This document shows positions 13,101 to 27,809 of a DNA stretch of 64,000 nt, piece by piece. Every line of letters begins with the position of its first letter. Position 1 is the stretch's first letter. Under the pieces are notes generated by a model. It was given only the letters and a program-made list of their open reading frames with translations. It did no database searches and was not told the origin of the DNA. Both the position numbers and the translations under genes were made by a program. Source of the DNA: Lytechinus pictus (taxonomy: Eukaryota); contig NC_087251.1 of assembly GCF_037042905.1 (NCBI RefSeq), positions 16,618,001 through 16,682,000 of the forward strand. The letters run 5' to 3'.

Positions 13101-15140
13101 GCTACATGTAGTTCAGTGGTTTGTTCAATTTTGATGAAATAGAAACTATGGCAATGATTGTTATATACACCTTTTTGTAGAGATTGTATTTTTATGGTAT
13201 TTATATGATACTTAAATACGTATTGAACAGAAGTCTAGTTTTTAACTCATCTTTAAGCTAGGCTTACTGATTTTCCTGAATATTGTGAAGAAAAAAGTGT
13301 AAAACATGGAAATGGTTTAGATCAAGATTACATTTAACCTGAATATCTTTGTTCAAATGACTAAACTCTTTGACTTTTTTACTATCTGTTCCATTCAGCT
13401 GAGCTCTACCTAAGTCTTGAAAGACCTGAGGAAGCCAGAGCTTGTGTGCAGGAAGCATCATCAATCTTTCCTCTCTCACATCAAGTTATGCATACAGTAA
13501 GACAAGTCTCTAATCCGATGTAAAATAAATTCAGTTGTAGCATTTTAGAATTCAACTTCTTCTTTTTTTTTTTACTATTTCTTTTGTTTTTCATTATATG
13601 AACTATATAGAATATTTCAGTTTATGGCAGATTTTGCAATAAGGGAGCATTTTTATGAATCATAGTATGTTACAACAATGGCAATGGCACATGTTCATGG
13701 ATGATTGAGACTTTGTTTCACATTGTAATGAGGAAAAAATTTAGATATTTCATCTATCATATAATGAAATACAGAAGAAATAACGAGTGGGCGACACCAT
13801 TAATCCCCTCATTTGCACACCAACCAGGGTGTGCTCAAAACTGTTTTGTGAAATTAAGCTAAAATTTTAAAGGTCATAATGTCTTCCTTAACATCCGATT
13901 TTGATTAAATTTTCACCTTTATACCTCTTTGATTTGTCTTTTTTCCTTTAAATCAGCTTTTTGCTGGGTGTACATGACCTTAAAAGATAATTCAACATTT
14001 TTCACCTCAGTTTCTTTCATATTTTCCCTTACATTTTCAACAGAGAGGGTGCATTCATGAGCACAATAGAGAGTGGTCAGATGCCAAGCAGTGTTATGAC
14101 AGTGCCCTGGCTATCAATCCTTCACATATCACCAGTCTTCAGAACCTAGGCTGTGTTTACACACAGCAAGGAAACATGCTCATGGCAGAGAGAATACTGA
14201 GAGAAGCAGTCAACATGGATCCCACTTCCCATCAGGCTTGGTATGAACATGGCTTGATTCTATATAGCTTTTAACTGTATCCAAAAAGAAAAACGTACTT
14301 ATGTTCAAAGACAAATTTCTGCTAATACTATTCTGAAGAATCTTAAAATGGAAATACATGATCAGCTTAATGAATGGTTCATATCTGTGTAAATTTTATT
14401 GATTTAAAAATGTGATTAAAGAAAGAATGTTAGAGTTGTACTATCGTTAAATACCATTTAATCACCATACATTTTTAGTTCTGTGTATTTTTTCCCAAAG
14501 TTACATATTCCCTGTAAGTCATATAAATGTATGTAAGATTAAACATTATTTTGATGGAAGAATCATATTGCAATTATCAGAAAACGGTTTGTTGTGATAT
14601 GAGAGTGCAATTGATTTTATTTTTCATGGACAAAATCAATTATTTTTTCTTGAAATTAAAGTTTTTGTGATCATGAATTCTATAGTCTCAGTGGTCAATG
14701 ATGCCTAGCCTTTGATAAAGTCCTATATTACCTGTATACCCAGTCACAAATAATGTTGCTCTTGTTTATGCTATGCAGTGTCAATATCTGAATACTTCCA
14801 ATATTCCATGAAGACGCCTGACCTGTTGACTCCTGTTTCCTCTAGGCTTTGTTCGGGGATCACTATGTTTCGGTAGACACTATGTGAAAATCATTATTGC
14901 CTGCCTGCTCTTATGAAATATCTATGCTCTAGTAGACCACCGTCTGAAACAAGGGGTACCTGATGATTAATTAGGGTTCATTGATAAATCTTGTATAATT
15001 TCCTTTGCAGGATCTCGCTCGGTAATGTTCTTCAAGCTTCGGGTCAGTGTGGAGCAGCAGGAGAATGTATGCTGACTGGTCTCCAGCTGGAGTCCACAAG
15101 CCCTATCCTACCTTTTTCAACCATTCCAAGAACTCTCTAG
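1010..15140 (+). CDS. TTC7B: Tetratricopeptide repeat protein 7 (TTC7A/TTC7B-like, PI4KA complex scaffold), 5'-partial, last 12 exons, about 502 aa in window
   Basis: Exons 1010-1147, 1771-1854, 2317-2421, 2904-3015, 3591-3721, 4539-4699, 5551-5667, 6383-6480, 12773-12910, 13399-13496, 14044-14240, 15011-15140. All are AG/GT bounded and phase-compatible (1509 nt, ending TAG). Peptides [56 protein letters not shown] and the C-terminus [17 protein letters not shown] match vertebrate TTC7B as recalled. Confidence 0.95.
1771..1854 (+). CDS. TTC7B: TTC7 exon ([28 protein letters not shown])
   Basis: aacag acceptor, gttagt donor, 84 nt. Confidence 0.92.
2317..2421 (+). CDS. TTC7B: TTC7 exon ([10 protein letters not shown]...VCLQHLQQ)
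   Basis: tctag acceptor, GT donor, 105 nt. Confidence 0.88.
2904..3015 (+). CDS. TTC7B: TTC7 exon ([10 protein letters not shown]...YGMMALE)
   Basis: tttag acceptor, GT donor, 112 nt, phase 0/1. Confidence 0.88.
3591..3721 (+). CDS. TTC7B: TTC7 exon ([13 protein letters not shown]...QLALSRQ)
   Basis: tacag acceptor, gtatt donor, 131 nt, phase 1/0. Confidence 0.9.
4539..4699 (+). CDS. TTC7B: TTC7 exon ([12 protein letters not shown]...[15 protein letters not shown]...YPDDF)
   Basis: tttag acceptor, gtaaga donor, 161 nt, phase 0/2. Confidence 0.93.
4766..4904. mobile_element. Short palindromic MITE, GGGCC termini, Harbinger-like
   Basis: GGGCCGTTTCAGAAAG ... CTTTGTAAGATAGGGCCC with TAG on both sides (4763-4765, 4905-4907). 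Confidence 0.55.
5551..5667 (+). CDS. TTC7B: TTC7 exon ([10 protein letters not shown]...[17 protein letters not shown])
   Basis: gacag acceptor, gtaagc donor, 117 nt, phase 2/2. Confidence 0.92.
6383..6480 (+). CDS. TTC7B: TTC7 exon ([19 protein letters not shown]...YSDRDS)
   Basis: Tandem TAGTAG acceptor (start 6383 or 6386), gtaaga donor, phase 2/1. Confidence 0.88.
8875..8898 (+). CDS. Candidate 24-nt alternative microexon of TTC7 (DARSERGKS)
   Basis: Long pyrimidine tract (about 8790-8853), AG at 8873-8874, perfect GTAAGT donor at 8899. Phase 1/1 matches the flanking exons and there is no stop. Confidence 0.5.
9890..10019. mobile_element. Short palindromic MITE
   Basis: GGGGTGTAACATAAAAG ... 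CTTTTATGTTACAGCACCC inverted ends. Confidence 0.45.
11597..11695. mobile_element. About 100-bp MITE
   Basis: GCCCTTTTCACAAT ... ATTGTGAAAACCCC inverted ends; internal TTGCGATCGT/ACGATCGCAA inverted pair. Confidence 0.45.
12773..12910 (+). CDS. TTC7B: TTC7 exon ([22 protein letters not shown]...HIWLAI)
   Basis: catag acceptor, gtaagg donor, 138 nt, phase 1/1. Confidence 0.93.
13399..13496 (+). CDS. TTC7B: TTC7 exon ([33 protein letters not shown])
   Basis: ttcag acceptor, gtaaga donor, 98 nt, phase 1/0. Confidence 0.92.
13510..13982. mobile_element. Degenerate foldback MITE, possibly Kolobok-like
   Basis: Internal inverted repeat about 13576-13601 / 13757-13782; right end ...GGGTGTACATGACCT then TAAA resembles the TTAA|AGGGGAAGTCCACCC end at 57123. 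Boundaries approximate. Confidence 0.4.
14044..14240 (+). CDS. TTC7B: TTC7 exon (RGCIHEH...ALAINPSH...[13 protein letters not shown])
   Basis: aacag acceptor, gtatga donor, 197 nt, TPR motifs. Confidence 0.93.
15011..15140 (+). CDS. TTC7B: TTC7 last coding exon (ISLGNVLQ...PFSTIPRTL*)
   Basis: tgcag acceptor, TAG stop 15138-15140; AATAAA candidates downstream (15661, 15696, 16509). Confidence 0.93.
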
Positions 15141-17687
15141 ACCATCTGTCAGTACTATTCTACACTGTCTGTAGCTAATGTCTGTCACTAAAGCGAGACT
15201 TCTTTAATATGAAAGAGTAAAGTGCGTGTTGCTTACACTTTTATCATTCCGATAGCATGATGTATTGCCACACTCACACTTTGGTGATATATCACTCGTT
15301 TCCTTTTGTCATTAAAGGGCAACATAGTATACTTCAACAGACCATGCACTGAGATCATCATTGAAGGTTTGTGTTTTTATAATGGAGACAAGGTTTCAGT
15401 TCACTATAAAGTGAAAATGGAATGTTTGAATGGTAGAATAGAGAGAAATTAAATGACAAATGAAAGAGATGGTGTGGAATCGAAAGGCAAGAACATGATA
15501 GATGAAAAAAAGAGAATATTCTTTTATGAAATTGGATGAAGTCCTTTAGAGGAATGTAAACCATGTGAGATACAGCAGCTTGAAGTACATGACAAAAATC
15601 ATCATTTAAATGTCATTTGTTCCAAATGAATGAAACTTCTGCATGTCGGTCAAAATATGCAATAAAAAAGACTCGCCCAATTTCTGATTACTGAAAATAA
15701 AGTTCAGATTAAAGAAGATTTTCAGAATACTGGCCTTGTTTGCCAGTGCGATATATTAAAAAAAAAATAATAAATGGAACAGGAGGATATTTTGCACTTA
15801 GCAGAGAGTATTTATATTTCTTCTGTTTGATTTCCAGAGCAGATGGTCTATTCTAAGAGAATATGACATGATTGTGCAATATCTGTTGGATGTATATACA
15901 TGTATTTATATTGAGCGCACAGTTGTTTGTGATGTTTTTGTTTTCTGATGTTGGTAAAACGCATTTAATTTTGCTGTGTTTTGAATGCTAACTAAAATTG
16001 TTCTATTTTACAAAAAGAAAAGATCACGATCTGAAAGTACAGGTAGAATTTGATTAAAATTTATTGGTAGATCATATCACAATTATATATATTTTCTATA
16101 GTTTACACAAATACAAACTTAGTTCCTCGTAGTAGATGCCCATACACAAGCATACCCAAAAGTTCCTTCAGTGCAATTTCATTGTATATTTCCTTCAGAA
16201 AATATACATTTATTCTATGGACAGGCTTACATTAATGTTTGCTCATTTAAGAAGGCATTTGTGGTTACTTACATCCATATTTGTAATTTTCTGGAAATAT
16301 TTATATTAACTGTATTTCTGTAATATAAATAGAGAACCTTTTCAAGATTTGCATTTTATATAATTTACACATATAAATTGATCAAAATGTTTTGAATAGA
16401 GAATATGAATAGCTCCACTAGAGCACCTATTTCCTAAATTATGATGAATGAATATAGAACAAGATTTCATACTGAAAATTTACACAATTTAATTAAAGCT
16501 ATTGATTGAATAAAATAAAACAATCACAATTTTACTGAGTTTGGTGTATTTTGTGCTAATAACAGAAGTAAAAGCCCCAAGCTAATAAAAATGTGCATAG
16601 AATGCATGGATAATAAATTAATCTCATTGATTGTATAGTCCAAGATGAATAATGAGAAAATGGAGGAGGAAATTTGGATAGGAAATGAGAGATGAAAGAG
16701 GATTTTAGAAAGAGGGGGAACATGGAAGTATATGTCAGAGAGAAAGATATATATATATACAGGCCCACACACACATACACTCAGAAAGAAGACTGAGGGA
16801 GGGCAGCGGGTAAAAAGGGAGAGAGAAGGTGAGGAAAAGAGAGCAAGAGAGAGAGAGAGGGGGTGAACATTCATATGGGATACATGTACATAACAAACAT
16901 GATGCAAAGCCAGTTTGAAACCATTTACAATATTACCAGAATATACATCATGAATGTGACTGCTTAGTGTAACCTCTTCCAAAACATATTATTGCACAAT
17001 CAATGCACTATCCCTGAACCCTAAAATCCATGCTAAAATCATAGATTCGTACAACAGAAAGGCACACAAAATAAGAATTACAATTCTTAAATTACTACCC
17101 ACCCCACCCTTCTGCCAAAAATGTGCTATTAGAGCAATGAATACATGTAAAAGGCACTTATTTGTCATGATTAAACCTGGATTCCCTAAATATATTGCCT
17201 TTAAAAGTCAAATTGACTATCTGTTTTCAATATACATGATTCCTTGACTACAAAAGCTCTCCATAGCATGAGCAAGATAAAAAACAATGGAATCACCTGA
17301 GTTTTAATGAAAGCAGGCAGTAGAATAACCAATAAATACTGCATCATGATCAAATCTGGCGGCATGACTACATGGAAAGCCAAACAGCGGCCTCCAAAAT
17401 GCATAGGCTCATACAAATAAAGTAAGCATTATGAGTACCTCCATAACAGCCCTTATTTTTGTATTAGCCAGTAAACATGGTCTTGTCTGCTGGTTTTACC
17501 ATGAGGCACCAACGCAAGTATGTCACATTCAAGAGATATATCATGTCCAACTAGACAAGTAAATCCTCAGTTGAAATACTGCCTTCAGTCAGTCACAAGA
17601 CTTTCTTCTTAATTCGAATGTATCTTGTTTTAATCAATAGGTTATGGAAACTGGTTTGTCCCTACGGTGAACCTGTCCCTACATGTA

Positions 17688-17866
17688 CAGTGGTGGTAAA
17701 AAGTTAGTGAACCCCACCAAAATATGCACTCCTTCATGCTGAGTGTTGAAGACATCAACACTACAATATCCGGTGAGCCCAGAGAAACAAACTTTATTAA
17801 ATATCTAAAACATGGCAGAACTTGAACACTTTTAAAATATGTTCATTTTTTGGTGGGTTCACTAAC
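17688..17866. mobile_element. Tc1/mariner-like element left end with internal inverted repeat
   Basis: TA|CAGTGGTGGTAAAAAGTTAGTGAACCCCACCAAAA; inverted copy TTTTGGTGGGTTCACTAAC ends at 17866; true right end not identified. Confidence 0.45.
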
Positions 17867-18720
17867 ATCAAGAGAATCGAATCAAAATCTGTCTTGTCAC
17901 AGTGAATTCAGCACTCAACATTTACATGTAAGTTGAACATATACATGACACAATGACCAATATATTATTTCATATATTACCATATTTCAAGTTTAAGGTT
18001 TTCAGAAAAAAACAATATCCAATTGATAAAATTGTCCCCCCCAAAAAAATCGGCCTCTGATCATTCACATTTCTACCCCTATGATACTAAGTTAGTATTA
18101 TGACAGAACTCTTGCAGGTTTTCATAATAAAATCACTTATGTGGCATTGGTGTGAAATATTTTAATGGGACTCTTGTACCTAAAATATACAAAAGAAATA
18201 AAACTGACTCTAACTGCCCTGAATAATAGGACTCAACACTCTTCATGCATATTTTCACTGCATAGAATACCCACAGGATTTGTAAAGGGAACACTCGATT
18301 CTAGTAAGCTTCACGAATTGATGCAGCATTTACTTTGTTAATATTTCATGCATTACTATTCTCCATCTATATCTACAGGTAAGGTAGATGAATTAATATA
18401 ATCATGAGTATACTGAAAGACAACGCTGCAAAATGTATAATATAAATATGTCTTTGATTCAATAATAAAAATTTAGCCTCAAGAACATTTTGTGCTGGAG
18501 TTTGAAATATGTTTCTTTTTTTTTGTACGAATATATTCAGACTACTCAAATTCGAATAAAACTATCTATAAAGAGCATGGAGAGAATTATTTAAACACTT
18601 TCAAAGAGTATGGGAGCTAGGAAAAGCTCTATTGTCTCTAAGCAGATAAAATATGAATAGCACCAGCCAGATGGTGATGATGCAGATAAAATTCGGTAAT
18701 GTCTGTAAATAGGTGTACAA

Positions 18721-18858
18721 TCACCATGGCAACTGATCAATATTCACATTCCCACCACACAAAATTACTGCCACATTCTTCAAGCTGGGATCAAGCGCCC
18801 TCATCTGGTCTGACAAAACAGCTGCTACCGGGGCTGCCCCTGCTGCTTCCACGACAAG
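18721..18858 (-). CDS. SRR: SRR-like last exon, distal copy 9b (LVVEAAGAAPVAAVLSDQMRALDPSLKNVAVILCGGNVNIDQLPW*)
   Basis: tttgtctaatcag acceptor, 138 nt, TGA stop; 34/45 aa identical to copy 9a. Confidence 0.85.
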   Translation of the reverse strand, partial: LVVEAAGAAPVAAVLSDQMRALDPSLKNVAVILCGGNVNIDQLPW

Positions 18859-21800
18859 CTGATTAGACAAACAGTAAGCAAGACAAAATAGAATGCATCT
18901 ATAAGGTTAGTACTGTGGAAAACTAAGCTTGATCAAATGACAAGCCACTATAATATTAGGGTTAACTGTATTAAAATGAATGGCAAGGGTGTGCAACAAA
19001 AATCCCGAACTTTCATCAATGAGATACAAAATGGTGAAATGCCCTATACTTTATAGACATTTTGTTTGTCCATAGGGCAAAGATTTCCCTGCTTATTATG
19101 AGGAAACCAATATGCATATATAATGAGCTATGACCTCTGATCTTTGAGCTGCAGTCTTGAAATTGAAATTTGTACTGGAGCGTACTTTTAGTTAGTTCTA
19201 CCTATATACACATCAGAAATTAGGAATTCACTATTCATCCGAATTATAGCACAATTATAAATTGGGGAAGAACAGAAAGACGGGTGCAATACCTTCGAGT
19301 CCAGAAATCGTCATCAAGGGCTCAAAAATAGTTTTTGCAATTTCAACTTGAAAAACCTTATAGTTGTAGAACAATCCAATGCATTAATCTTGCATGAACA
19401 AACCAACACTGCAAATGTCTGCAATTCACCCGGCCTGCCAGAACCCTAGGCAGCAAATGTCATTTTTTCTCTTGTTTCTTTTTTAATCAAGTATGACCAA
19501 AACTTCCTGTTATAATGGTAATACATATATATGTATATTTCAATTTAGGCAACTCTAATTTGACATGCTTAAAGACAGTATATCAAATTGAGTTGCTATA
19601 ACAATTATAAAAATAATGATAGTACAGTTAGTGTCATGCATGTATAAAAGACTACACAGCAAAAAAGATTCATGGATTACTGAATATAAACAGCTCTATT
19701 TTCAATTCAGGTGGCGGGTGAACTCCATACATACAAAATTCAAATTCCTTGTTCAAACTATTTATATAGAAACTTCATTGAAATTCAACCAGTAAAATGG
19801 TCAATCGTCATGCGTCTACCAAGTGGTTTGAACCAGAGCCATGAAGACCAACTATCACCATGGTAATTGCTCGATATTCACATTTCCACCACACATGAGA
19901 ACCGCCACGTTTCTAACCCTTGGATCGACAGCTTTCATCTTGTCAGATAAAACTGCTGCTACTGGTCCAGCACTTGCTGCTTCTACTACCAGCTGAGTGG
20001 AAAAATAAGTCATGGATAGCTGGTGCTCTCAAATGTACTTATTCATTAAGAAACCATCAATCTACCAAGATTATGTCAATATTCATTTTTCATACAGTAT
20101 AATTCAAAATTAATTAATATTTACTAATTACAATACAATTCAAAAGATAAAATAATACAAAAAATGAAGGTAGATTCTATGGTTGGCATGTGAAAATGAA
20201 AATGTCTAAACTTATAATTTTTAACAATCCAAACATGAACTATCGAAAAAATGAAGAAACGTTTGAAAACTCGCATTTGAAAGTTCTGTCATGTTAAAAA
20301 GTTTAATAGTACTAGTAGAGAAACATTTTCTGACTTGCAAATGCAAAATAAACATTTCACTGTTTGTACCCTTTAAGATATTTGACAGACATTGTCTTTG
20401 CTTTTTATCAAAATATAAAATAAAGAAATATGCAGTTTTATTGAATTACCTTTAATCTTGTCCATGTAAATTTCATTGCTGAAATGATTTCATCATCTGT
20501 CTACAAAAAGCAGACAAAAATACTAATTGATAATACACCAAAAATCAATGATCAACAAATGAAAATATTTACAATTCATAATGGAATATAATACATCCAT
20601 CATTTTATAAATTATTCAGATGTCAATCCTGATTATCTTCAGCTATCAGAAAAGCTACTAGGGAATTGCTTTGTTTTATATGCAAAAAATCAAAACAAAG
20701 TTATCTTTACTTCCAAAATATTAGATGCTCAGGATAAATTCCAAGCCCACAGCTCGAAACCTCTTTGTCATTACACTGGCTCACTTTGAAATATTGATGT
20801 AATGAATGTTTTAATATTCAAATTTTTTATATCATACATACCACTGTAAATACTTGTTTCTCAACAAGATCTCTGACAATAGGCCAAGTAAGCTGTCCGA
20901 CCTGTTGGGTAGGTGTAGCATCGGCTACTGTATCAAGGGTTTTAGGTGGTCCTACCCACATTCTCTCTCCTATTGTATAACATTTGATTTATAAAAAAAT
21001 ATATTAGTAAGGAAAAAAATGGCAAACTGAATTATAAATACAAGGAAAACAAAAGACTTGTATATCATGATTCAAAATGTGAACAGGTGGGCAGCTATTA
21101 GAAAAAATATCAGTTTGTTCAGAGGAGTTGTTAACAGTTTTTAAATGGTCTTTTCACTCTCTTCAACACAGCGAAGCAATCAAGTCTCAACAGGTCTCAA
21201 AGTTTTGGTCAAGGCAGTTTTATACAATGGGTAACAAATAAACTGAAATAGTTTGGGAAATTATGAAAACTAAAAGCCAGTAAAATGAGAGATAAAAATG
21301 TTTTTAGTACCATTTCATCAATATAACATGAACATGTTTCATCTAAGGAAAATTATTTCCTCTTCTCTTTCTCCTCTTCATCTAACACCTCCTCTCCTTC
21401 TTCTACCTCTACCTTTCCTCGTTCTTCTTCTTCCTCTCCTTCTACAACATTCAACTAGCTCTTCCAACTATTTTGAAAATGTAAGCTAATTTTGTTTTTT
21501 TTTCTGTGGCAGCGGTGGGATGTATTTTTCAAAATAACTTCAAACCTTAATTTGAAAACTGCTTAAAGAAAAATAATGGTCTTTATCTATTAGAAACATT
21601 GTATTGAGCATTATAAAAATGTTGCATAGCATTATTATCATTCATATCCCCCCCAAAAAAAAAATTATTTTGTTTCTTCACAGGACATCTTTAGAAATGT
21701 AAAATTGGTATGAAACAGATAGATACTACTAATGTAGATGTATGGTGTACTTCTCATTTTTGTTGTATCAAACTATGAAATGTTTGGTATGACTTACCTG

Positions 21801-24800
21801 ACTCAAGAGATCTTTGGAGATCTTTTCCTTCTGGTTCAACAGCAAAAACTGAATTATCAAATCAAGATGTATTAAGAATCAAACCATGCTTGATTAAATA
21901 TAAAAATACATAAAATACATATAATTTATCATATCTAAGAAAATCCTTTTTGAGATTACTTAATCCAGCAAATGTATGTCATAATAATTCCTACGCTGAA
22001 AATATATGAGTTCATCTTTATTTTTATTTTCAAATTAGTACCACTTTTCACACAATATTAGAAGGTCAAGAGCGGGGGTGAAATGTGCTCCCTTCCTCAT
22101 CGACAAGGACTTTTGTATTCATTAACAGGTTTTAATAGTAATTTTGGGCAATCCTTTCCCTAGACCCCCTTAAAAAATTTTGGATCTGCTGGTGTGCAGT
22201 TCAATTCTCATTTATATCTTTAATTGTTGACACTGAAAATAATAAGAAATTCACTTGTATTCTTGCAAGTGAAAAAGAAACCAATTCTTGATTTACCTTT
22301 GACATTTGGCTTCATTCCCTTTACTGCTGTAGCGATACCTGCTATGAGGCCGCCACCACTGGTCATGACTAGGACAGCATCGAGGTCTTGTACCTGTTCA
22401 CATATCTCTATACCAATAGTCCCCTGGAATATCAAATGTGAATGACAGTTTTTAAAATAATGGGGGACTAAAATGTGAACATTTCTATTTAAAGCAAGGT
22501 ACACAAAGTGTACTTTGAACCAACAAGGCTTGAGGTTTCAAGATAGTCACAGGTGTAATCGTAGATATGTAATGTTATGACATTCAGGTTTGAGGGGTGG
22601 GGTGTGCATGACAAAAATAGATCAGCCCCCCCCCCCCACACACACACACACTGCTGGAAATTCTGATGTCTTTTCATACCACGCTGATAATGATGCTCAC
22701 AAGTAAAATCAGCAAAATTAGCAAGGACCATATTAAAAAATACAATTCTAAGTTCCCAGATAATACACCCAAGATAATCATGAAAAATAAAAAATATAAC
22801 AGATTACCAGTAATCCTTTTACTTTCTTCCCTATCTTGCTTACCCCTTTAATGTGTAGGTTCAACATAAAGAATGCATATTTTGAGCCAAAAAACTTGGT
22901 ACCGGTACCAAGGAAAATCGTTCCAAGTTTGGGTGGTTGATGATGTCATATCCACTAATAACACTCATCATAACAGCTGTCTCAAAACAAGTTTGAAACA
23001 GATGAGCTCATAAAAAACAACACTCCCATCTTGCTAAAGATGACGGTGGTAAAATAATACAAGGTTAATGAGGCAGGATGGATCAATTGGAGACCAAACC
23101 AGTTTACTAGCAAATAGAGTCACAAAATACCAAATTTGGGAGGACAACAAGATAATTGCCTAATAGTGCACTGCAGAATACTCACAAATAAAGGTTTTTG
23201 GAATTCAATGATTTGAACAACTGAACTTTAAAAACACGATAACAGTTTGTAAGGTCAAGATCACAAAATAACTAACTTATTTTTGGCAACATGAGTGAAA
23301 TTTCTTCAAAGGAATGGTGACTGCTCAAACTGAACATTTATATTGCAATAATCACTTTACTAGCATCATCAACCTGAAAAGGGTCTTGGTTTGGTAATGG
23401 CAGGAATTACTCAAAGGTTTTGATCCAGGTAAAGTCACATGGGGCATGTGCCTCCATATTTTTTCCAAAATAAGCATTGTCGTGCCTCTTTTATTATGGT
23501 GATAACCCTTTTTGCTCATGACATCTTAGGACAACTGTATGCTGTTCAGGGGTGAGAATGATTTTCATTTATTTTTTGTAATTATTATGGAATAATGTTG
23601 GAGATTGAATACACTTTTTATCTGCTTAATTGTCAGGAAATTCTGTACACCTGAACCCACTTTCTGTGCTCCTTAATTTATGAAGTACTAGATCTTCCCA
23701 GGGGCCAGGGTGAAGTATACTAGATCATCTTGATATTTTCGAACTTTTTAAGGCTACTGGATTACAAAAGGTGTGGAGATTATATGGCATAAATATAGTC
23801 CTCGTGAAGTAAGAGGGAGATGAACTCATCCAGATCTTTTTAGAATGGTGAAGATAGGATCTGTCCAAGGCTATCAAGTATAGTTTTGGGATTTCATTAA
23901 GCTTAAATTTACTGAGGCAACCTTGACACAATTTAGTCATGGCAAAGGTTCATCGGCTAATGTAATAACTTGTTAAAGGTTTATTATGGATAACAAAAGA
24001 CTGAGTTGATGAAAATTTAAGTTGATCACTGACCTGACCTGCCATTACATTATAGTCATCATATGCAGGAACAAACGACAGGTTCTTTTCAGAGGCGACA
24101 TGCTCACATGTTTCCTTCCTGTGAAAACGATAACAAATGAAGCAAAAGCAGTTATATTATTGATTAAAACCCTGGATATAGAAGGTCTTTCTATATTCAT
24201 TGACAATCTTTCAGAACTAATATCAAAACGGAACAAGACAATGGTTTAAACATGCAGGCATTGCAAGACTCAGTAATACATAATATCTTACCATTCCTTC
24301 TGAAACAAGTTCTGAGTTAACCTTATAGTCTCAATACATTTCCCCTTGTTTTGCATAGCCAAATCTTAATACAGACCAAATAAAACATTTCGATCTTTGT
24401 AAGTAGTGTCATATCAGCTGTGATGTTCTGAATGACAATCATACAATATTCACCATGAAGCAAAAACCGGGAAGAGGATATCTAATGTATCTTTAATTGT
24501 TCATTACCTTGATTGTTGGGTTGGTTCGCAGAAGACCACATCAGCTCCGTACCACCTGATGGCATCCACCTTGACCGAAGCGGTAGTGTGGGGCACCACA
24601 ACGGTGCATGGTACCCCAACCATCTGGGCAGCACAGGCCAGCCCTGAGCCATGGTTACCTGTACTATGGGTGACCTATAGGTGAAATTACATACAATCCA
24701 GACTATGAACAAAAAATCAAACAATGGAAATATATTATGAAAATTACCCTTTCCCATACAACCTTCAATGTAAATGAAATGCATAATAAATTACCTTGCA

Positions 24801-27800
24801 CATCATTTAATTTCAAGATTTATGGATCGAATGTAAATATTGACTTAGTTTGTTAATTGTATTCGATTAGTTTCCTAATTTTTTAATTGATCAAGAAATA
24901 AAAACAGTTGGATGTTTATGTGTGCAACACTAATTTTTTCTCAATTAATTATTACACATATATAAAAAGCAATCCTGAGAGCCATCAATTCACAATTTAC
25001 TGCCATATTTTCAAATTAGAATGAATGAGTTCTGTATTTTTCAAATGATAAGTTTTTCTTGATCGTAGCCTACATACTCACCACACCATTTGTCTGTGCT
25101 TGATTTTCCTTCAATAAAAGAATCTGCATGTCAAAAGAATACACATAGCAAATTGATTAATTGACAAATATACCTTAATGGAATATCCTGTTGTTTGTGG
25201 ATTGAAATTATCTGTCGTTAAAACCTTTTTTAATTTGCTTTTAAATGATTTTTTGTGAATATCATGATTCCATTTTTATATTCAACAAAGGGAAACAAAT
25301 TTTCCACAAGGGGTCAATCAATGCTCAATTTAAATTCAAATTTCTACTCTTAAAATATCAATATTGTTGGTATCGCTGTTGGAGCTTATCAATTACAAAT
25401 CAATTTTTGGTCCAAAGGCTATCATAAGACTTGCAAGTCATTTCATATTCCTGATTGATTGAATAAGCCTGCTTTTTCACAACAGAAAGTAGAGATTATT
25501 TTATCAAAGTTGCAATAGGCATAGTTAGTGAAAAAAATATGAGTTAGAGTATAGCAAATATGTGGTAAATTTTCTAAACAGTCACAAATAAGCAAAGTGG
25601 GCAAGCAAAAATTTGACCTTTAAAATAGTCGAAAATTAAATCTTGTGAAAAGATTTCACACAATACAGAAAATAATTTCATATTTTACCCTTTTCCCTTT
25701 ATTACCTTACTCCCCCCCCCCCTTCCTACCCTCTGGTACATCAGTGGTTAAAGCTGATCTACCATTTTAAAGTTTGCAATCAATTATAACATCATCTTAA
25801 TCTACTTATTTTATGATGGTGATAATCATTGTCAGCGAGCATCCATTTTGGATTTTAGGAGATTAAAAATTTGAATCTTGGATTTCCCCTTTCTAGGATG
25901 CTGACTCATATCCTGCAACCACTGCCATGGACCAATTGGCAGGTTGTCCTTTTTATCCTCAGGCTATAGTTACATATATTTAGTTTTTGATTTATAAAAC
26001 CAATTATTTTATATAAAAATAATAAAATGTATATCCAGATCATTTGATAAAACCCACTTAGTCCTGTACATATATGTATCCAAGTCATCTCTCAATCACC
26101 ACTATTGAGTAACAAGAAGCAGATCCATATGTAGTACCGGTACTTAGTACTTACAGTTGCTTTGTAATACAAAAACAATGTAAGGAATAAATATCATTAA
26201 CGGAATATGAGCCCCCATACTACATGACTATATCACATATTTCTTTTTTTTTGTATCATGTTTAATCCATTCTACATGTAAACTGTGTATGGTCATTTAT
26301 TTTCTAAAGTTCTATTCTGGATATTCTCTGTATATTGACTTTGTTTCATACTTCAAATTAAGTAGGTCGAAATATCGGTGCATAAGTTTCATTGTAAAAT
26401 AATTGTTTTGCTTTTTTCAAATTGACAATCAAATTTCTTTAAAATTGTCAACTTATAACTCAAACTGTCATATTGATTTTCCCAACCTTACTGACCATTC
26501 TATAAAATATGAAATCTATTTAAAAAAATAGACATATAGGCCTATACAGGTTTTGCAGATAAAAAAAACACACTAACAAAAAAAAAGTCTCATAACCGGC
26601 TAATTTATCACTAGAATCCTCATCAATTTTCCGATATCTTCATATAATCATCATCACCATCACAACCACCATCACAATCATGATTATCAAAAACATCATC
26701 AGTATGATAAAAGTCATGACCATTAACTTTGAACAGTCTTCACTGTCAACACCATTGTTGTCATCACCATTCGTTCATTCATTATCACCGATTACGATTA
26801 TTTATCATAGATCTCTGAGCGTTTCCAGTATATTTCTGGTATACTACTACTAATCATCATCATCATCCCTGACATCATCCCCAAGATCACTCACACGTAT
26901 TGCGAGGTTAGTATTAGTATACTAACCTCGCACCATGAACCGCGTTTGGCAGTGGATTTCTAACTAGTGGGTCGCGCGTGCTGCGATCCCACTTCTGGTG
27001 TCTACAACACACGACTTCTATGGCTTGATTTTTCTGTAATGAACCCTTGAGTGCCCCAAGATCGCCTTCACCAGCACCAAAATCATCATGAATAAAACTC
27101 AACATCATCACCATCTTCCACATCGCATACACAATATTTACAATCATCGTCAACATGCATATATATCGTCATCATCATCATCACACCACCATCATCACTA
27201 CTACCTCGTGATGGTTCGTGTAGGCTCCACTAGACTACCGCTACACAAACGATGAACCAACACCCAAGGTACGGTACATCACCACCACATCCATGACATC
27301 ATCACCATGCATCATCATCAGCATCATCATCACCGCCATGCACCATCACACACCATCATCATTCATCACCCATCATTCATCATCATTACCAACATCATCA
27401 TCACCACCATTCACCAAACATCATCACCATGATCACCATAATTGATGAAGATCATGACAACATCATCATCGAAGATGATGTTGTCATGACATGATCTACA
27501 TCAATTGCCATCTTAACTTCATGATCTTGAATTGGAAGCGGAACATGATTTAACTCCCAATAAATCTCAATCACACTCAGATTCATTCAGATATCTTTCG
27601 ATCAATTAGACAAATAACTAAAAAAAACTCTAGCTTACAGCATTTAAAGCTCCCCGAATCTTGAAAGAGCCTGTTTTCTGAAGATTTTCAGCCTTGAAAA
27701 ACACATTCCTTCCTGTCAATTTGTCAACTGTACCACTAGTGAAAACTGGAGTTGGACTAATATAATTTGCTACTCTTTTCGAAGCACCAAGTATCTTATC

Positions 27801-27809
27801 AAACAACAT
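18721..27809 (-). CDS. SRR: Serine racemase / serine-threonine dehydratase family PLP enzyme (fold type II), 319 aa, 9 coding exons with two alternative copies of exon 9
   Basis: Minus-strand exons 27809-27639, 25123-25082, 24674-24508, 24118-24034, 22423-22297, 21848-21798, 20969-20842, 20500-20450, then 19992-19855 or 18858-18721 (960 nt either way). Motifs: KAENLQKTGSFKIRGA (PLP lysine), THSTGNHG, AGQGT, SGGGL, AVEP, TVAD, CGGNV. Confidence 0.92.
19855..19992 (-). CDS. SRR: SRR-like last exon, proximal copy 9a (LVVEAASAGPVAAVLSDKMKAVDPRVRNVAVLMCGGNVNIEQLPW*)
   Basis: tttttccactcag acceptor, 138 nt, TGA stop. Confidence 0.9.
   Translation of the reverse strand: MVVEAASAGPVAAVLSDKMKAVDPRVRNVAVLMCGGNVNIEQLPW
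20450..20500 (-). CDS. SRR: SRR-like exon 8 (TDDEIISAMKFTWTRLK)
   Basis: tgtag acceptor, gtaatt donor, 51 nt. Confidence 0.9.
20842..20969 (-). CDS. SRR: SRR-like exon 7 (GERMWVGPPKTLDTVAD...TWPIVRDLVEKQVFTV)
   Basis: aatag acceptor, gtatgt donor, 128 nt. Confidence 0.92.
21798..21848 (-). CDS. SRR: SRR-like exon 6 (VFAVEPEGKDLQRSLES)
   Basis: ttcag acceptor, gtaagt donor, 51 nt. Confidence 0.9.
22297..22423 (-). CDS. SRR: SRR-like exon 5 (GTIGIEICEQVQDLDAV...SGGGLIAGIA...PNVK)
   Basis: tccag acceptor, gtaaat donor, 127 nt; lies inside track ORF 22220..22504. Confidence 0.93.
24034..24118 (-). CDS. SRR: SRR-like exon 4 (KETCEHVASE...PAYDDYNVMAGQ)
   Basis: cacag acceptor, gtcagt donor, 85 nt. 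Confidence 0.92.
24508..24674 (-). CDS. SRR: SRR-like exon 3 (VTHSTGNHG...WYGADVVFCEPTQQSR)
   Basis: tatag acceptor, gtaatg donor, 167 nt. Confidence 0.93.
25082..25123 (-). CDS. SRR: SRR-like exon 2 (ILLLKENQAQTNGV)
   Basis: tgcag acceptor, gtgagt donor, 42 nt, phase 0/0; fills the expected gap. Confidence 0.85.
26640..27490. repeat. Degenerate (CAT/CAC)n trinucleotide tract in SRR-like intron 1
   Basis: Dense CATCATCAC repeats, strongest at 27080-27490, interrupted by unique inserts. Confidence 0.85.
27639..27809 (-). CDS. SRR: SRR-like exon 1 (MLFDKILGAS...QKTGSFKIRGALNA)
   Basis: First in-frame ATG after an upstream in-frame TGA; gtaagc donor; 171 nt. Confidence 0.92.

What the first reader, a model, noticed from the sequence alone, without database searches (positions are those of the whole stretch)
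18721..19992. Serine racemase-like gene has two intact, diverged copies of its last coding exon (swappable C-terminal PLP-contact module)
Seen: two 138-nt exons about 1.1 kb apart (19992-19855 and 18858-18721). Both have a good acceptor, are phase 0 with exon 8, encode 45 aa ending CGGNVNI(E/D)QLPW*, and have no indels. 34/45 residues are identical, 17 of those 34 codons differ synonymously, and most replacements are conservative. I found no copy of exon 8 or earlier exons between them. Known: this segment of fold-type II enzymes carries the E-x-x-(T/S)-A motif and the (S/C)GGN residue that contacts the PLP pyridine nitrogen. Inference: an old exon duplication kept under purifying selection gives alternative last exons, two enzyme isoforms (EAASAG vs EAAGAA) and different 3' UTRs. 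A possible proximal poly(A) signal ATTAAA lies at 19482-19487 on the minus strand.
Basis: partly seen in the sequence, partly recalled or inferred. Interest (0 to 1): 0.8.

Follow-up and report, generated by a model that had tools for sequence, protein, structure and literature searches.

The report
Sea urchin serine racemase alternative last exons
A sea urchin serine racemase-like gene really does carry two old, diverged copies of its last coding exon that are spliced in alternatively to give two full-length enzyme isoforms, but public gene annotation already lists both isoforms, so this is a tidy example of a known kind of event.

Summary
Exons 9a (19855-19992, minus) and 9b (18721-18858, minus) are 103/138 nt and 34/45 aa identical, with 17 synonymous-only codon differences, no indels and no stops. 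Of the 35 differences, 26 are at third codon positions. None of 100,000 random placements gave 11 or fewer replacements. Similarity ends at the exon edges.

Exons 1-8 have no second close copy in the window or the 812-Mb genome.

RNA reads and contigs show both GT..AG junctions, 20450->19992 and 20450->18858.

Spliced either way, the window gene translates exactly to two RefSeq proteins named Lytechinus pictus serine racemase-like isoforms X1 and X2. L. variegatus and Strongylocentrotus purpuratus have the same pair.

Both copies keep the residues that align with human E283, S313 and N316. The 11 differences are conservative, so a functional difference between isoforms is unproven.

Four literature searches found no paper on it, but automated annotation already holds it. 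Interest is low to moderate.

The parts
27639..27809 (-). coding exon 1 (ATG at 27809)
   Evidence: splice-aware mapping reproduces P0011/P0003 exactly; tblastn
25082..25123 (-). coding exon 2
24508..24674 (-). coding exon 3 (holds T76 and S81, aligned with human S84 and Q89)
24034..24118 (-). coding exon 4
22297..22423 (-). coding exon 5 (Gly-rich phosphate loop SGGG)
21798..21848 (-). coding exon 6
20842..20969 (-). coding exon 7
   Evidence: junction 20842->20500 seen in all 4 runs
20450..20500 (-). coding exon 8, 17 codons ending ...TRLK, phase 0; a single GT donor at 20449-20448 serves both last exons
   Evidence: joints
19855..19992 (-). last exon copy 9a (45 codons + TGA), gives RefSeq isoform X2 (P0003)
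   Evidence: joint 20450->19992 in X2 contig (depth 6.0), X19 2 reads, X20 3 reads
19230..19854 (-). transcribed 3' UTR after 9a; the lower limit is approximate because coverage stops here in run X1
   Evidence: X1 contigs 19314-19881 (depth 7.9) and 19230-19343; depth 0-0.55 over 18887-19237 in X1; the 3' end is not mapped
19482..19487 (-). ATTAAA, the only canonical poly(A) hexamer between 9a and 9b; use not shown
   Evidence: contigs continue past it
18721..18858 (-). last exon copy 9b (45 codons + TGA), gives RefSeq isoform X1 (P0011); the slower-evolving copy
   Evidence: joint 20450->18858 in X1 (depth 48) and X2 (39.5) contigs, X19 3 reads, X20 2 reads
17806..18720 (-). transcribed 3' UTR after 9b: to at least 18357 on the same contig as the junction, and through abutting contigs of similar depth to about 17806; ATTAAA at 18161-18166 and AATAAA at 17793-17798
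   Evidence: X1 records 5, 3/4 and 2; hexamers

Best explanation
The last coding exon of a single-copy sea urchin serine racemase-like gene was duplicated in tandem before Lytechinus and Strongylocentrotus diverged. Both copies survive as alternative last exons.

The one donor of exon 8 (20450) splices either to the proximal acceptor (19992, exon 9a) or, skipping 9a, to the distal acceptor (18858, exon 9b). Each exon ends in its own stop codon and is followed by its own, unrelated 3' UTR. The result is two 319-aa enzymes that differ at 11 of the last 45 residues.

The swapped segment forms a helix (279-288), a short helix (291-295), a strand (302-307) and the C308-G-G-N311 loop. It carries the pyridine-N donor and two residues of the ATP-to-PLP hydrogen-bond relay, all unchanged between copies.

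Shown: the duplication, purifying selection, both junctions, and conservation in three species.

Inferred: the choice is made by competition between recognition of 9a as a terminal exon (acceptor plus proximal 3'-end processing) and read-through to 9b. The pay-off is isoform-specific 3' UTR regulation, fine tuning of the enzyme, or both.
For: - Sequence statistics are.
- Homology is confined to the exon plus about 13 nt of acceptor. The flanks score like shuffled sequence.
- Exons 1-8 are single copy in the window and the genome.
- Both joints have CT..AC on the plus strand, which is GT..AG on the minus strand. For 8->9b: X1 contig depth 48, X2 39.5, X19 3 reads, X20 2 reads. For 8->9a: X1 none, X2 contig depth 6.0, X19 2 reads, X20 3 reads. 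In the raw-read runs X19 and X20, depth over the gene (17951-21100) is almost wholly in one read direction, with traces of 0.3 or less the other way in X20. The bins lying wholly inside the introns flanking exon 8 (20057-20290 and 20525-20758) have zero depth in all 4 runs.
- The spliced CDS equals P0003 with 9a and P0011 with 9b.
- X1/X2 isoform pairs differing only in the last 45 aa exist in 3 of 3 camarodont species found.
- Orthologous exons differ less than paralogous ones: 9a-9a 7/45 and 9b-9b 4/45, against 10-14/45. The 9a clade has support 99/93.
- 3 of 3 variants seen in the RNA runs inside the two exons are synonymous third-position changes.
- E278, C308 and N311 align with human E283, S313 and N316. 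Their roles are taken from passages of PMC6424897 and PMC6333871.
- The model has mean pLDDT 94.
Against: - Junction support in raw reads is thin: 2-3 reads per run, with about 6% of each run read. Runs X1 and X2 are only guessed to be RNA, although their exon-only coverage and spliced contigs behave like RNA.
- X1 has no contig across 8->9a.
- No 3' ends were mapped. The table of begin/end places is empty, and contigs cannot show ends.
- The 11 differences are conservative and miss the known catalytic and relay residues, so the two proteins may be functionally equivalent.
- 9a differs more between genera (7/45) than the constant part does (21/274). Fisher p is 0.09, so this is not significant.
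- Diadema has only one annotated form. The age beyond camarodonts is therefore unknown.
Confidence: 0.9

Rival explanations
1. Both exons are spliced, but only 9b matters. On this reading 9a is a tolerated, lower-use alternative, effectively splicing and polyadenylation noise that still yields a working enzyme and is drifting slowly.
For: - 9b is closer to every outgroup compared, with 11-21 differences against 15-25 for 9a.
- 9a changed 7/45 between genera against 4/45 for 9b.
- Contig word depth favours 9b about 6:1 in X1 and X2 (the tool calls depth a poor measure of expression).
Against: - 9a has no stop or indel, although silent sites are near saturation (pS 0.70).
- It keeps E278, C308 and N311.
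- Its type-specific residues S281, G283, K294, V296 and V300 are the same in Lytechinus and Strongylocentrotus.
- Both variants seen inside 9a are synonymous.
- In X20 the 9a junction count (3) is not below that of 9b (2).
Confidence: 0.08
2. 9b or 9a is the relic of a deleted tandem paralogue and is not part of this gene.
For: Two homologous terminal exons about 1.1 kb apart could in principle be left by the loss of a second gene copy.
Against: - No trace of exons 1-8 between or beyond the copies, or elsewhere in the genome at high identity.
- Both copies are spliced to exon 8.
- Both are under purifying selection.
- The same arrangement is annotated in three species.
Confidence: 0.01
3. Assembly artefact: a collapsed or duplicated haplotype placed in tandem.
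For: An old S. purpuratus model (P0017) does contain an artefact-like internal repeat.
Against: - The copies differ at 25% of bases and their flanks are unalignable, far beyond allelic divergence.
- Both forms occur in RNA and in three independent assemblies' annotations.
Confidence: 0.01

Closest known systems
RefSeq models 'serine racemase(-like) isoform X1/X2' of Lytechinus pictus (XP_054758798.2, XP_063958159.1), L. variegatus (XP_041469160.1, XP_041469161.1) and Strongylocentrotus purpuratus (XP_030854872.1, XP_030854873.1)
   Same: This is the same object. The window's gene, spliced to 9b or to 9a, translates letter for letter to the two L. pictus proteins. All pairs are 319 aa and differ only in the last 45 residues.
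   Different: These are automated predictions without commentary. The exon-duplication origin, the selection statistics and the junction evidence given here are not part of them. Four literature searches found no paper describing them.
Tandem exon duplications giving mutually exclusive terminal exons (Drosophila pip; 3' variable regions of PGRP-LC), as reviewed in PMC9013439 (passages read)
   Same: Homologous exons in tandem, only one of which ends up in the mature mRNA. Each brings its own 3' end.
   Different: There are two copies here rather than a cluster. The gene is an enzyme in a deuterostome invertebrate. No competing RNA structure was found: only weak AT-rich inverted repeats, and this cannot be tested without orthologous introns.
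Human/rat serine racemase (3L6B, 3HMK) and Anadara broughtonii aspartate racemase (5YBW)
   Same: Fold-type II PLP enzymes. E-values are 2.7e-104 to 5YBW and 9.4e-79 to 3L6B over nearly full length. The Schiff-base Lys, the Gly-rich loop, the pyridine-N donor (Cys as in 5YBW, Ser in human) and the E283/N316 equivalents are all present.
   Different: - No duplicated C-terminal exon is known to me for those genes (recalled, not tested).
- The sea urchin protein has Thr where human has Ser84, and Ser where human has Gln89.
- It has P-A-Y-D instead of the H-P-N-Q or S-S-S-D loops.
- Its activity is untested.
Ylistrum balloti (scallop) 'probable serine racemase' isoforms X2 and X3
   Same: Same gene family. 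The two annotated isoforms carry homologous but different sequence over about 35 residues, as mutually exclusive duplicated exons would give.
   Different: The difference lies in an internal segment (residues about 229-262, the equivalent of exon 7), not the last exon. It was seen only at the protein level and X3 also has a 14-aa deletion. I did not follow it up.

Membership tests
Alternative last exons derived from tandem exon duplication | Two adjacent homologous exons of equal length and the same phase | tested here: met
   138 nt each, phase 0 with exon 8, 75% nt and 76% aa identity, 996 nt apart
Alternative last exons derived from tandem exon duplication | Each exon is spliced to the same upstream donor | tested here: met
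   Joints 20450->19992 and 20450->18858 with GT..AG ends in contigs and raw stranded reads; counts are small (2-3 reads per run)
Alternative last exons derived from tandem exon duplication | The exons are not joined to each other in one mRNA | tested here: inconclusive
   No 9a->9b joint among the 15 joints listed; 10 further joints were not shown
Alternative last exons derived from tandem exon duplication | Each exon has its own 3' end / poly(A) site | tested here: inconclusive
   In X1, coverage after 9a stops near 19230 and is zero up to 9b; some coverage of 18887-19237 in X2 and X19; no end peaks reported; hexamers listed
Alternative last exons derived from tandem exon duplication | Both copies conserved in other species | tested here: met
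   Protein pairs in 3 of 3 camarodont species; 9a clade support 99/93. Only one form is annotated in Diadema; its genome could not be searched
Serine/aspartate racemase family (fold-type II PLP enzymes, PF00291) | Schiff-base lysine (human K56) and Gly-rich phosphate loop | tested here: met
   K50 invariant in 33/33 aligned homologues; S177-G-G-G aligned with the human loop
Serine/aspartate racemase family (fold-type II PLP enzymes, PF00291) | Ser or Cys H-bond donor to the PLP pyridine nitrogen (human S313; Cys in 5YBW) | tested here: met
   C308 in both 9a and 9b, aligned with S313; role taken from passages of PMC6424897
Serine/aspartate racemase family (fold-type II PLP enzymes, PF00291) | Re-face catalytic Ser (human S84) needed for racemisation | tested here: inconclusive
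   Thr76 at this position. Thr occurs in 10 of 33 aligned homologues, including all 6 echinoid rows. The hydroxyl is kept; activity is untested
Serine/aspartate racemase family (fold-type II PLP enzymes, PF00291) | ATP-to-PLP relay residues (human T52, N86, Q89, E283, N316) | tested here: inconclusive
   4 of 5 present (T46, N78, E278, N311); Q89 is replaced by S81 in the 4 camarodont rows
Aspartate racemase subgroup | Triple serine loop (S-S-S at human 152-154) | tested here: not met
   P144-A-Y-D aligns there. Not filed as an aspartate racemase, although 5YBW is the best solved match

The most novel reading that the evidence does not exclude
The two C-terminal modules are not equivalent. They re-house the same contact residues (E278, C308, N311) in different surroundings. 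The type-specific positions S281G and G283A sit at the start of the helix that follows E278, and L306I and M307L sit in the strand that leads into C308. The two isoforms could therefore differ in nucleotide activation, or in how flux divides between racemisation and beta-elimination. Sea urchins would switch isoforms by tissue or stage through coupled choice of splice site and poly(A) site. That would be a natural, evolution-tested module swap in a serine racemase.
Probability: 0.25. Interest if true: 0.55.

Novelty: already known. Interest (0 to 1): 0.28.

Why it matters
As it stands this is a clean and well-supported case. An enzyme gene keeps two versions of its C-terminal structural module for at least the time since two sea urchin genera split.

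It offers a ready-made natural experiment on the part of serine racemase that links the nucleotide site to the cofactor. The species involved are laboratory models in which isoform-specific perturbation is feasible.

It does not open a new kind of mechanism. Alternative exons born of tandem exon duplication, including terminal ones, are established (PMC9013439, passages read), and the isoforms are already in RefSeq.

Tried and rejected
I used own-genome searches instead.
- Sequencing-run search: no RNA holder listed on record. X1-X4 are 'RNA?' guesses and X19-X21 are raw RNA runs of the same species label. I laid 4 of the 21 runs listed.
- Flank homology: local alignment of 200 nt upstream and 300 nt downstream scored 13 and 16, against shuffle means of 15.3 and 16.9. 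No extended duplication is detectable.
- Relic paralogue and assembly artefact: rejected.
- Age beyond camarodonts: the 45-column tree leaves Diadema and 9b unresolved; 22 of 30 inner branches are open. By distance, 9b is 15-16/45 from Diadema and 10-11/45 from the 9a exon of the same or the other genus (Lp9a-Sp9b 14). This hints at a post-Diadema duplication but is weak. No other eukaryote genome could be searched with these tools.
- Other isoform pairs in the family: Anneissia and Crassostrea virginica X1/X2 differ only at the N-terminus.
- Competing RNA structures: only weak AT-rich inverted repeats, at most 30 nt and 70-93% complementary. Not interpretable without orthologous introns.
- Earlier findings of this scan: nothing by sequence or by place.
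- Literature: the search 'serine racemase' + 'sea urchin' listed 3 papers. By title and abstract start, none concerns this gene's structure. 'serine racemase' + 'aspartate racemase' + invertebrates + exon gave 0. racemase + Strongylocentrotus + D-serine gave 1 paper, on an unrelated topic by its title and abstract start. One search gave reviews only. Uda et al. 2016 and 2017 (Amino Acids) are not in the searchable library. I saw them only as cited in PMC6424897, so they could hold relevant gene-structure data.
- Structure search and complex prediction were not run. Sequence identity to solved structures made them unnecessary.
Full report
WHAT IS THERE

[quoted passage not shown] The coding exons are 27809-27639, 25123-25082, 24674-24508, 24118-24034, 22423-22297, 21848-21798, 20969-20842 and 20500-20450, followed by a last exon.

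The last exon exists twice:
- 9a at 19992-19855
- 9b at 18858-18721

Joined to exons 1-8, 9a gives a protein identical to P0003 and 9b one identical to P0011. The database names these serine racemase-like isoforms X2 and X1 of Lytechinus pictus.

CHECK OF THE OBSERVATION

- 103/138 bases and 34/45 residues identical
- 17 codons identical, 17 differing only synonymously, 11 replaced
- no indel, and both copies end in TGA

Nei-Gojobori gives pS 0.70, pN 0.117 and dN/dS about 0.06. Of the 35 differences, 26 are at third positions. In 100,000 simulations placing 35 substitutions at random, the mean was 21.7 amino-acid changes and the minimum 12. None reached the observed 11, and about 64% created a stop.

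Similarity covers the exon plus about 13 nt of the acceptor region. Upstream and downstream flanks align no better than shuffled sequence. The duplication is therefore old enough for non-coding sequence to have lost all signal, while the coding part was held.

NOT A RELIC, NOT AN ARTEFACT

A sensitive tblastn with the full protein finds every exon once in the window and only the last exon twice. Nothing resembling exons 1-8 lies between or beyond the copies.

In the 812-Mb genome, exons 1-8 are single copy at high identity. The only other matches are distant paralogue exons, 38-57% identical, on contigs C17, C2, C11 and C9. The two that cover the last exon (C17 and C2) each do so once.

A base difference of 25% with unalignable flanks is far beyond haplotype divergence.

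TRANSCRIPTION AND SPLICING

I laid four runs on window 17600-21100. X1 and X2 are contig sets guessed to be RNA. X19 and X20 are stranded raw RNA-seq, each read to about 6%.

| Junction | X1 | X2 | X19 | X20 |
|---|---|---|---|---|
| 20450->18858 (8->9b) | contig, depth 48 | contig, depth 39.5 | 3 reads, 3 starts | 2 reads, 1 start |
| 20450->19992 (8->9a) | none | contig, depth 6.0 | 2 reads | 3 reads |
| 20842->20500 (7->8) | depth 48 | depth 35.7 | 6 reads | 12 reads |

- The skipped stretches all begin and end CT..AC on the plus strand, which is GT..AG for a minus-strand gene.
- In the raw-read runs, depth over the gene (17951-21100) is almost wholly in one read direction. X20 has traces of 0.3 or less the other way.
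- The bins lying wholly inside the introns flanking exon 8 (20057-20290 and 20525-20758) have zero depth in all four runs. The coverage is therefore mature RNA. X1 and X2 behave as RNA.
- After 9a, contigs cover 19881 down to 19314 and on to 19230. In X1 the depth then falls to zero until 9b.
- After 9b, one contig carries the junction and runs to 18357. Abutting contigs of similar depth reach 17806, where a high-copy repeat begins.
Contigs continue past it, so the 9a poly(A) site is not settled.
- No 3'-end peaks were reported.
- Word depth favours 9b about 6:1 in X1 and X2. Junction reads are about even in X19 and X20. These numbers are too small, and contig depth too crude, to claim regulation.

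CONSERVATION

The 90%-identity cluster of P0003 holds seven RefSeq proteins. Six are X1/X2 pairs from L. pictus, L. variegatus and Strongylocentrotus purpuratus. The seventh is an older version of the L. pictus record. All are 319 aa, and within each pair they differ only in the last 45 residues.

Differences between L. pictus and S. purpuratus:

| Comparison | Differences |
|---|---|
| Constant part | 21/274 |
| 9b vs 9b | 4/45 |
| 9a vs 9a | 7/45 |
| 9a vs 9b, within or across species | 10-14/45 |

A tree of the 45-residue segment groups the two 9a exons with support 99/93. The duplication therefore predates the split of the two genera, and each copy has kept its own character since: S281/G283/K294/V296/V300 in 9a against G281/A283/R294/L296/L300 in 9b.

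9b is closer to every outgroup examined, so 9a is the more derived copy. The excess change in 9a is not significant (Fisher p 0.09 against the constant part).

Three of three variants seen in the RNA runs inside the two exons are synonymous third-position changes.

Diadema antillarum and D. setosum have only one annotated form, with a 9b-like EAAGAAP start. Whether a second exon exists there could not be tested, because no other eukaryote genome is available here.

WHAT THE SWAPPED SEGMENT IS

The best solved relatives are aspartate racemase 5YBW (E 2.7e-104) and human serine racemase 3L6B (E 9.4e-79). In those alignments:
- E278 aligns with human E283
- C308 aligns with S313, and with the pyridine-N cysteine of 5YBW
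- N311 aligns with N316
- R272-L273-K274, the last three residues of exon 8, align with the ATP-contacting R277-M278-K279 of the partner subunit

The roles of these residues come from passages of PMC6424897 and PMC6333871.

An AlphaFold model (mean pLDDT 94) puts the exon-9 segment into helix 279-288, short helix 291-295, strand 302-307, the CGGN loop and a short C-terminal turn.

The 11 differences fall as follows:
- at the start of the first helix (281, 283)
- in the short helix and the loop after it (292, 294, 296, 299-301)
- in the strand (306, 307)
- in the tail (315)

All are conservative. None touches the named contact residues, which are identical in both copies and invariant or nearly so in 33 homologues. 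Calling this a 'swappable PLP-contact module' is fair as anatomy. But the swap changes context, not contacts.

MECHANISM

Shown: one donor, two acceptors, two stops, two unrelated 3' UTRs.

Inferred from general knowledge of alternative last exons: 9a is used when it is recognised as a terminal exon, through its acceptor plus proximal 3'-end processing. Otherwise transcription reaches 9b, whose acceptor follows a comparably pyrimidine-rich tract, and 9a is skipped with the intron.

I found no convincing long-range complementary elements of the docking/selector kind.

Purifying selection on both copies cannot tell us what is selected, whether different enzyme properties or different 3' UTR regulation. 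Each copy must encode a working C-terminus in either case.

COMPARISON WITH WHAT IS KNOWN

Alternative exons born of tandem exon duplication are a well-described class. Mutually exclusive duplicated terminal exons are described for Drosophila pip and PGRP-LC (PMC9013439, passages read).

The present isoform pair is already in RefSeq for this species and two others. Four searches found no paper about it. The invertebrate racemase papers of Uda et al. are not in the searchable library.

I therefore rate it as already known at the level of annotation. It is a good, undescribed-in-print example of a known kind.

FAMILY MEMBERSHIP

The protein is a clear member of the fold-type II serine/aspartate racemase family. 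However:
- It has Thr at the position of the catalytic re-face Ser84.
- It has Ser instead of Gln89.
- It has a P-A-Y-D loop rather than the aspartate-racemase S-S-S loop.

The name 'serine racemase' rests on homology alone.

VERDICT

- Observation: confirmed.
- Interpretation: supported.
- Novelty: low.
- Interest: 0.28.

The boldest reading still open is that the two modules tune allostery or reaction partitioning and are switched in a regulated way. I give this about 0.25.

Noticed in passing
window 24508-24674 (-), exon 3: The constant part of the enzyme has Thr76 where human serine racemase has the re-face base Ser84, and Ser81 where it has Gln89 of the ATP relay. Thr occurs in 10 of 33 aligned homologues, including all 6 echinoid rows. 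Ser81 occurs only in the 4 camarodont rows. Racemase activity is therefore not a given.
   Followed up: partly
proteins P0024 and P0056 (Ylistrum balloti isoforms X2 and X3), residues about 229-262: Two annotated scallop isoforms of the same family carry homologous but different sequence over about 35 residues (the exon-7 equivalent). This looks like a separate case of mutually exclusive duplicated exons in this gene family.
   Followed up: no
protein P0017 (old S. purpuratus model XP_011677045.1, 375 aa): It repeats the segment GTIGVEMC...VFTV (residues 156-257) twice in tandem with one difference, and ends in unrelated sequence. This is probably an artefact of an old assembly or model.
   Followed up: no
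window 17700-17850: High-copy repeat just beyond the 9b 3' UTR. Contig word depth is in the thousands, reads lie on both strands, and there are many odd joints and loose ends.
   Followed up: no
residue 304 of both exon copies (window about 19903-19905 and 18769-18771, -): Position 304 is Ala in both 9a and 9b of Lytechinus, and Gly in both copies of Strongylocentrotus. The Lytechinus codons differ (GCG and GCA), so this is not a recent conversion tract. It may be a parallel change or co-adaptation with the constant part.
   Followed up: partly
window 26600-27500, both strands (intron 1): Low-complexity stretch giving long His/Ser/Thr/Ile-rich open frames on both strands. It looks like a microsatellite-like repeat, not a gene.
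   Followed up: no
window 13984-14274 (+): A 96-aa open frame with a TPR-like sequence (…[48 protein letters not shown]…). It may be an exon of a neighbouring gene on the other strand.
   Followed up: no
window 18257-18386: In both X1 and X2, two contig versions of the 9b 3' UTR have roughly equal depth and differ by 3 substitutions and 1 inserted base. This fits two alleles in the sampled animals.
   Followed up: no
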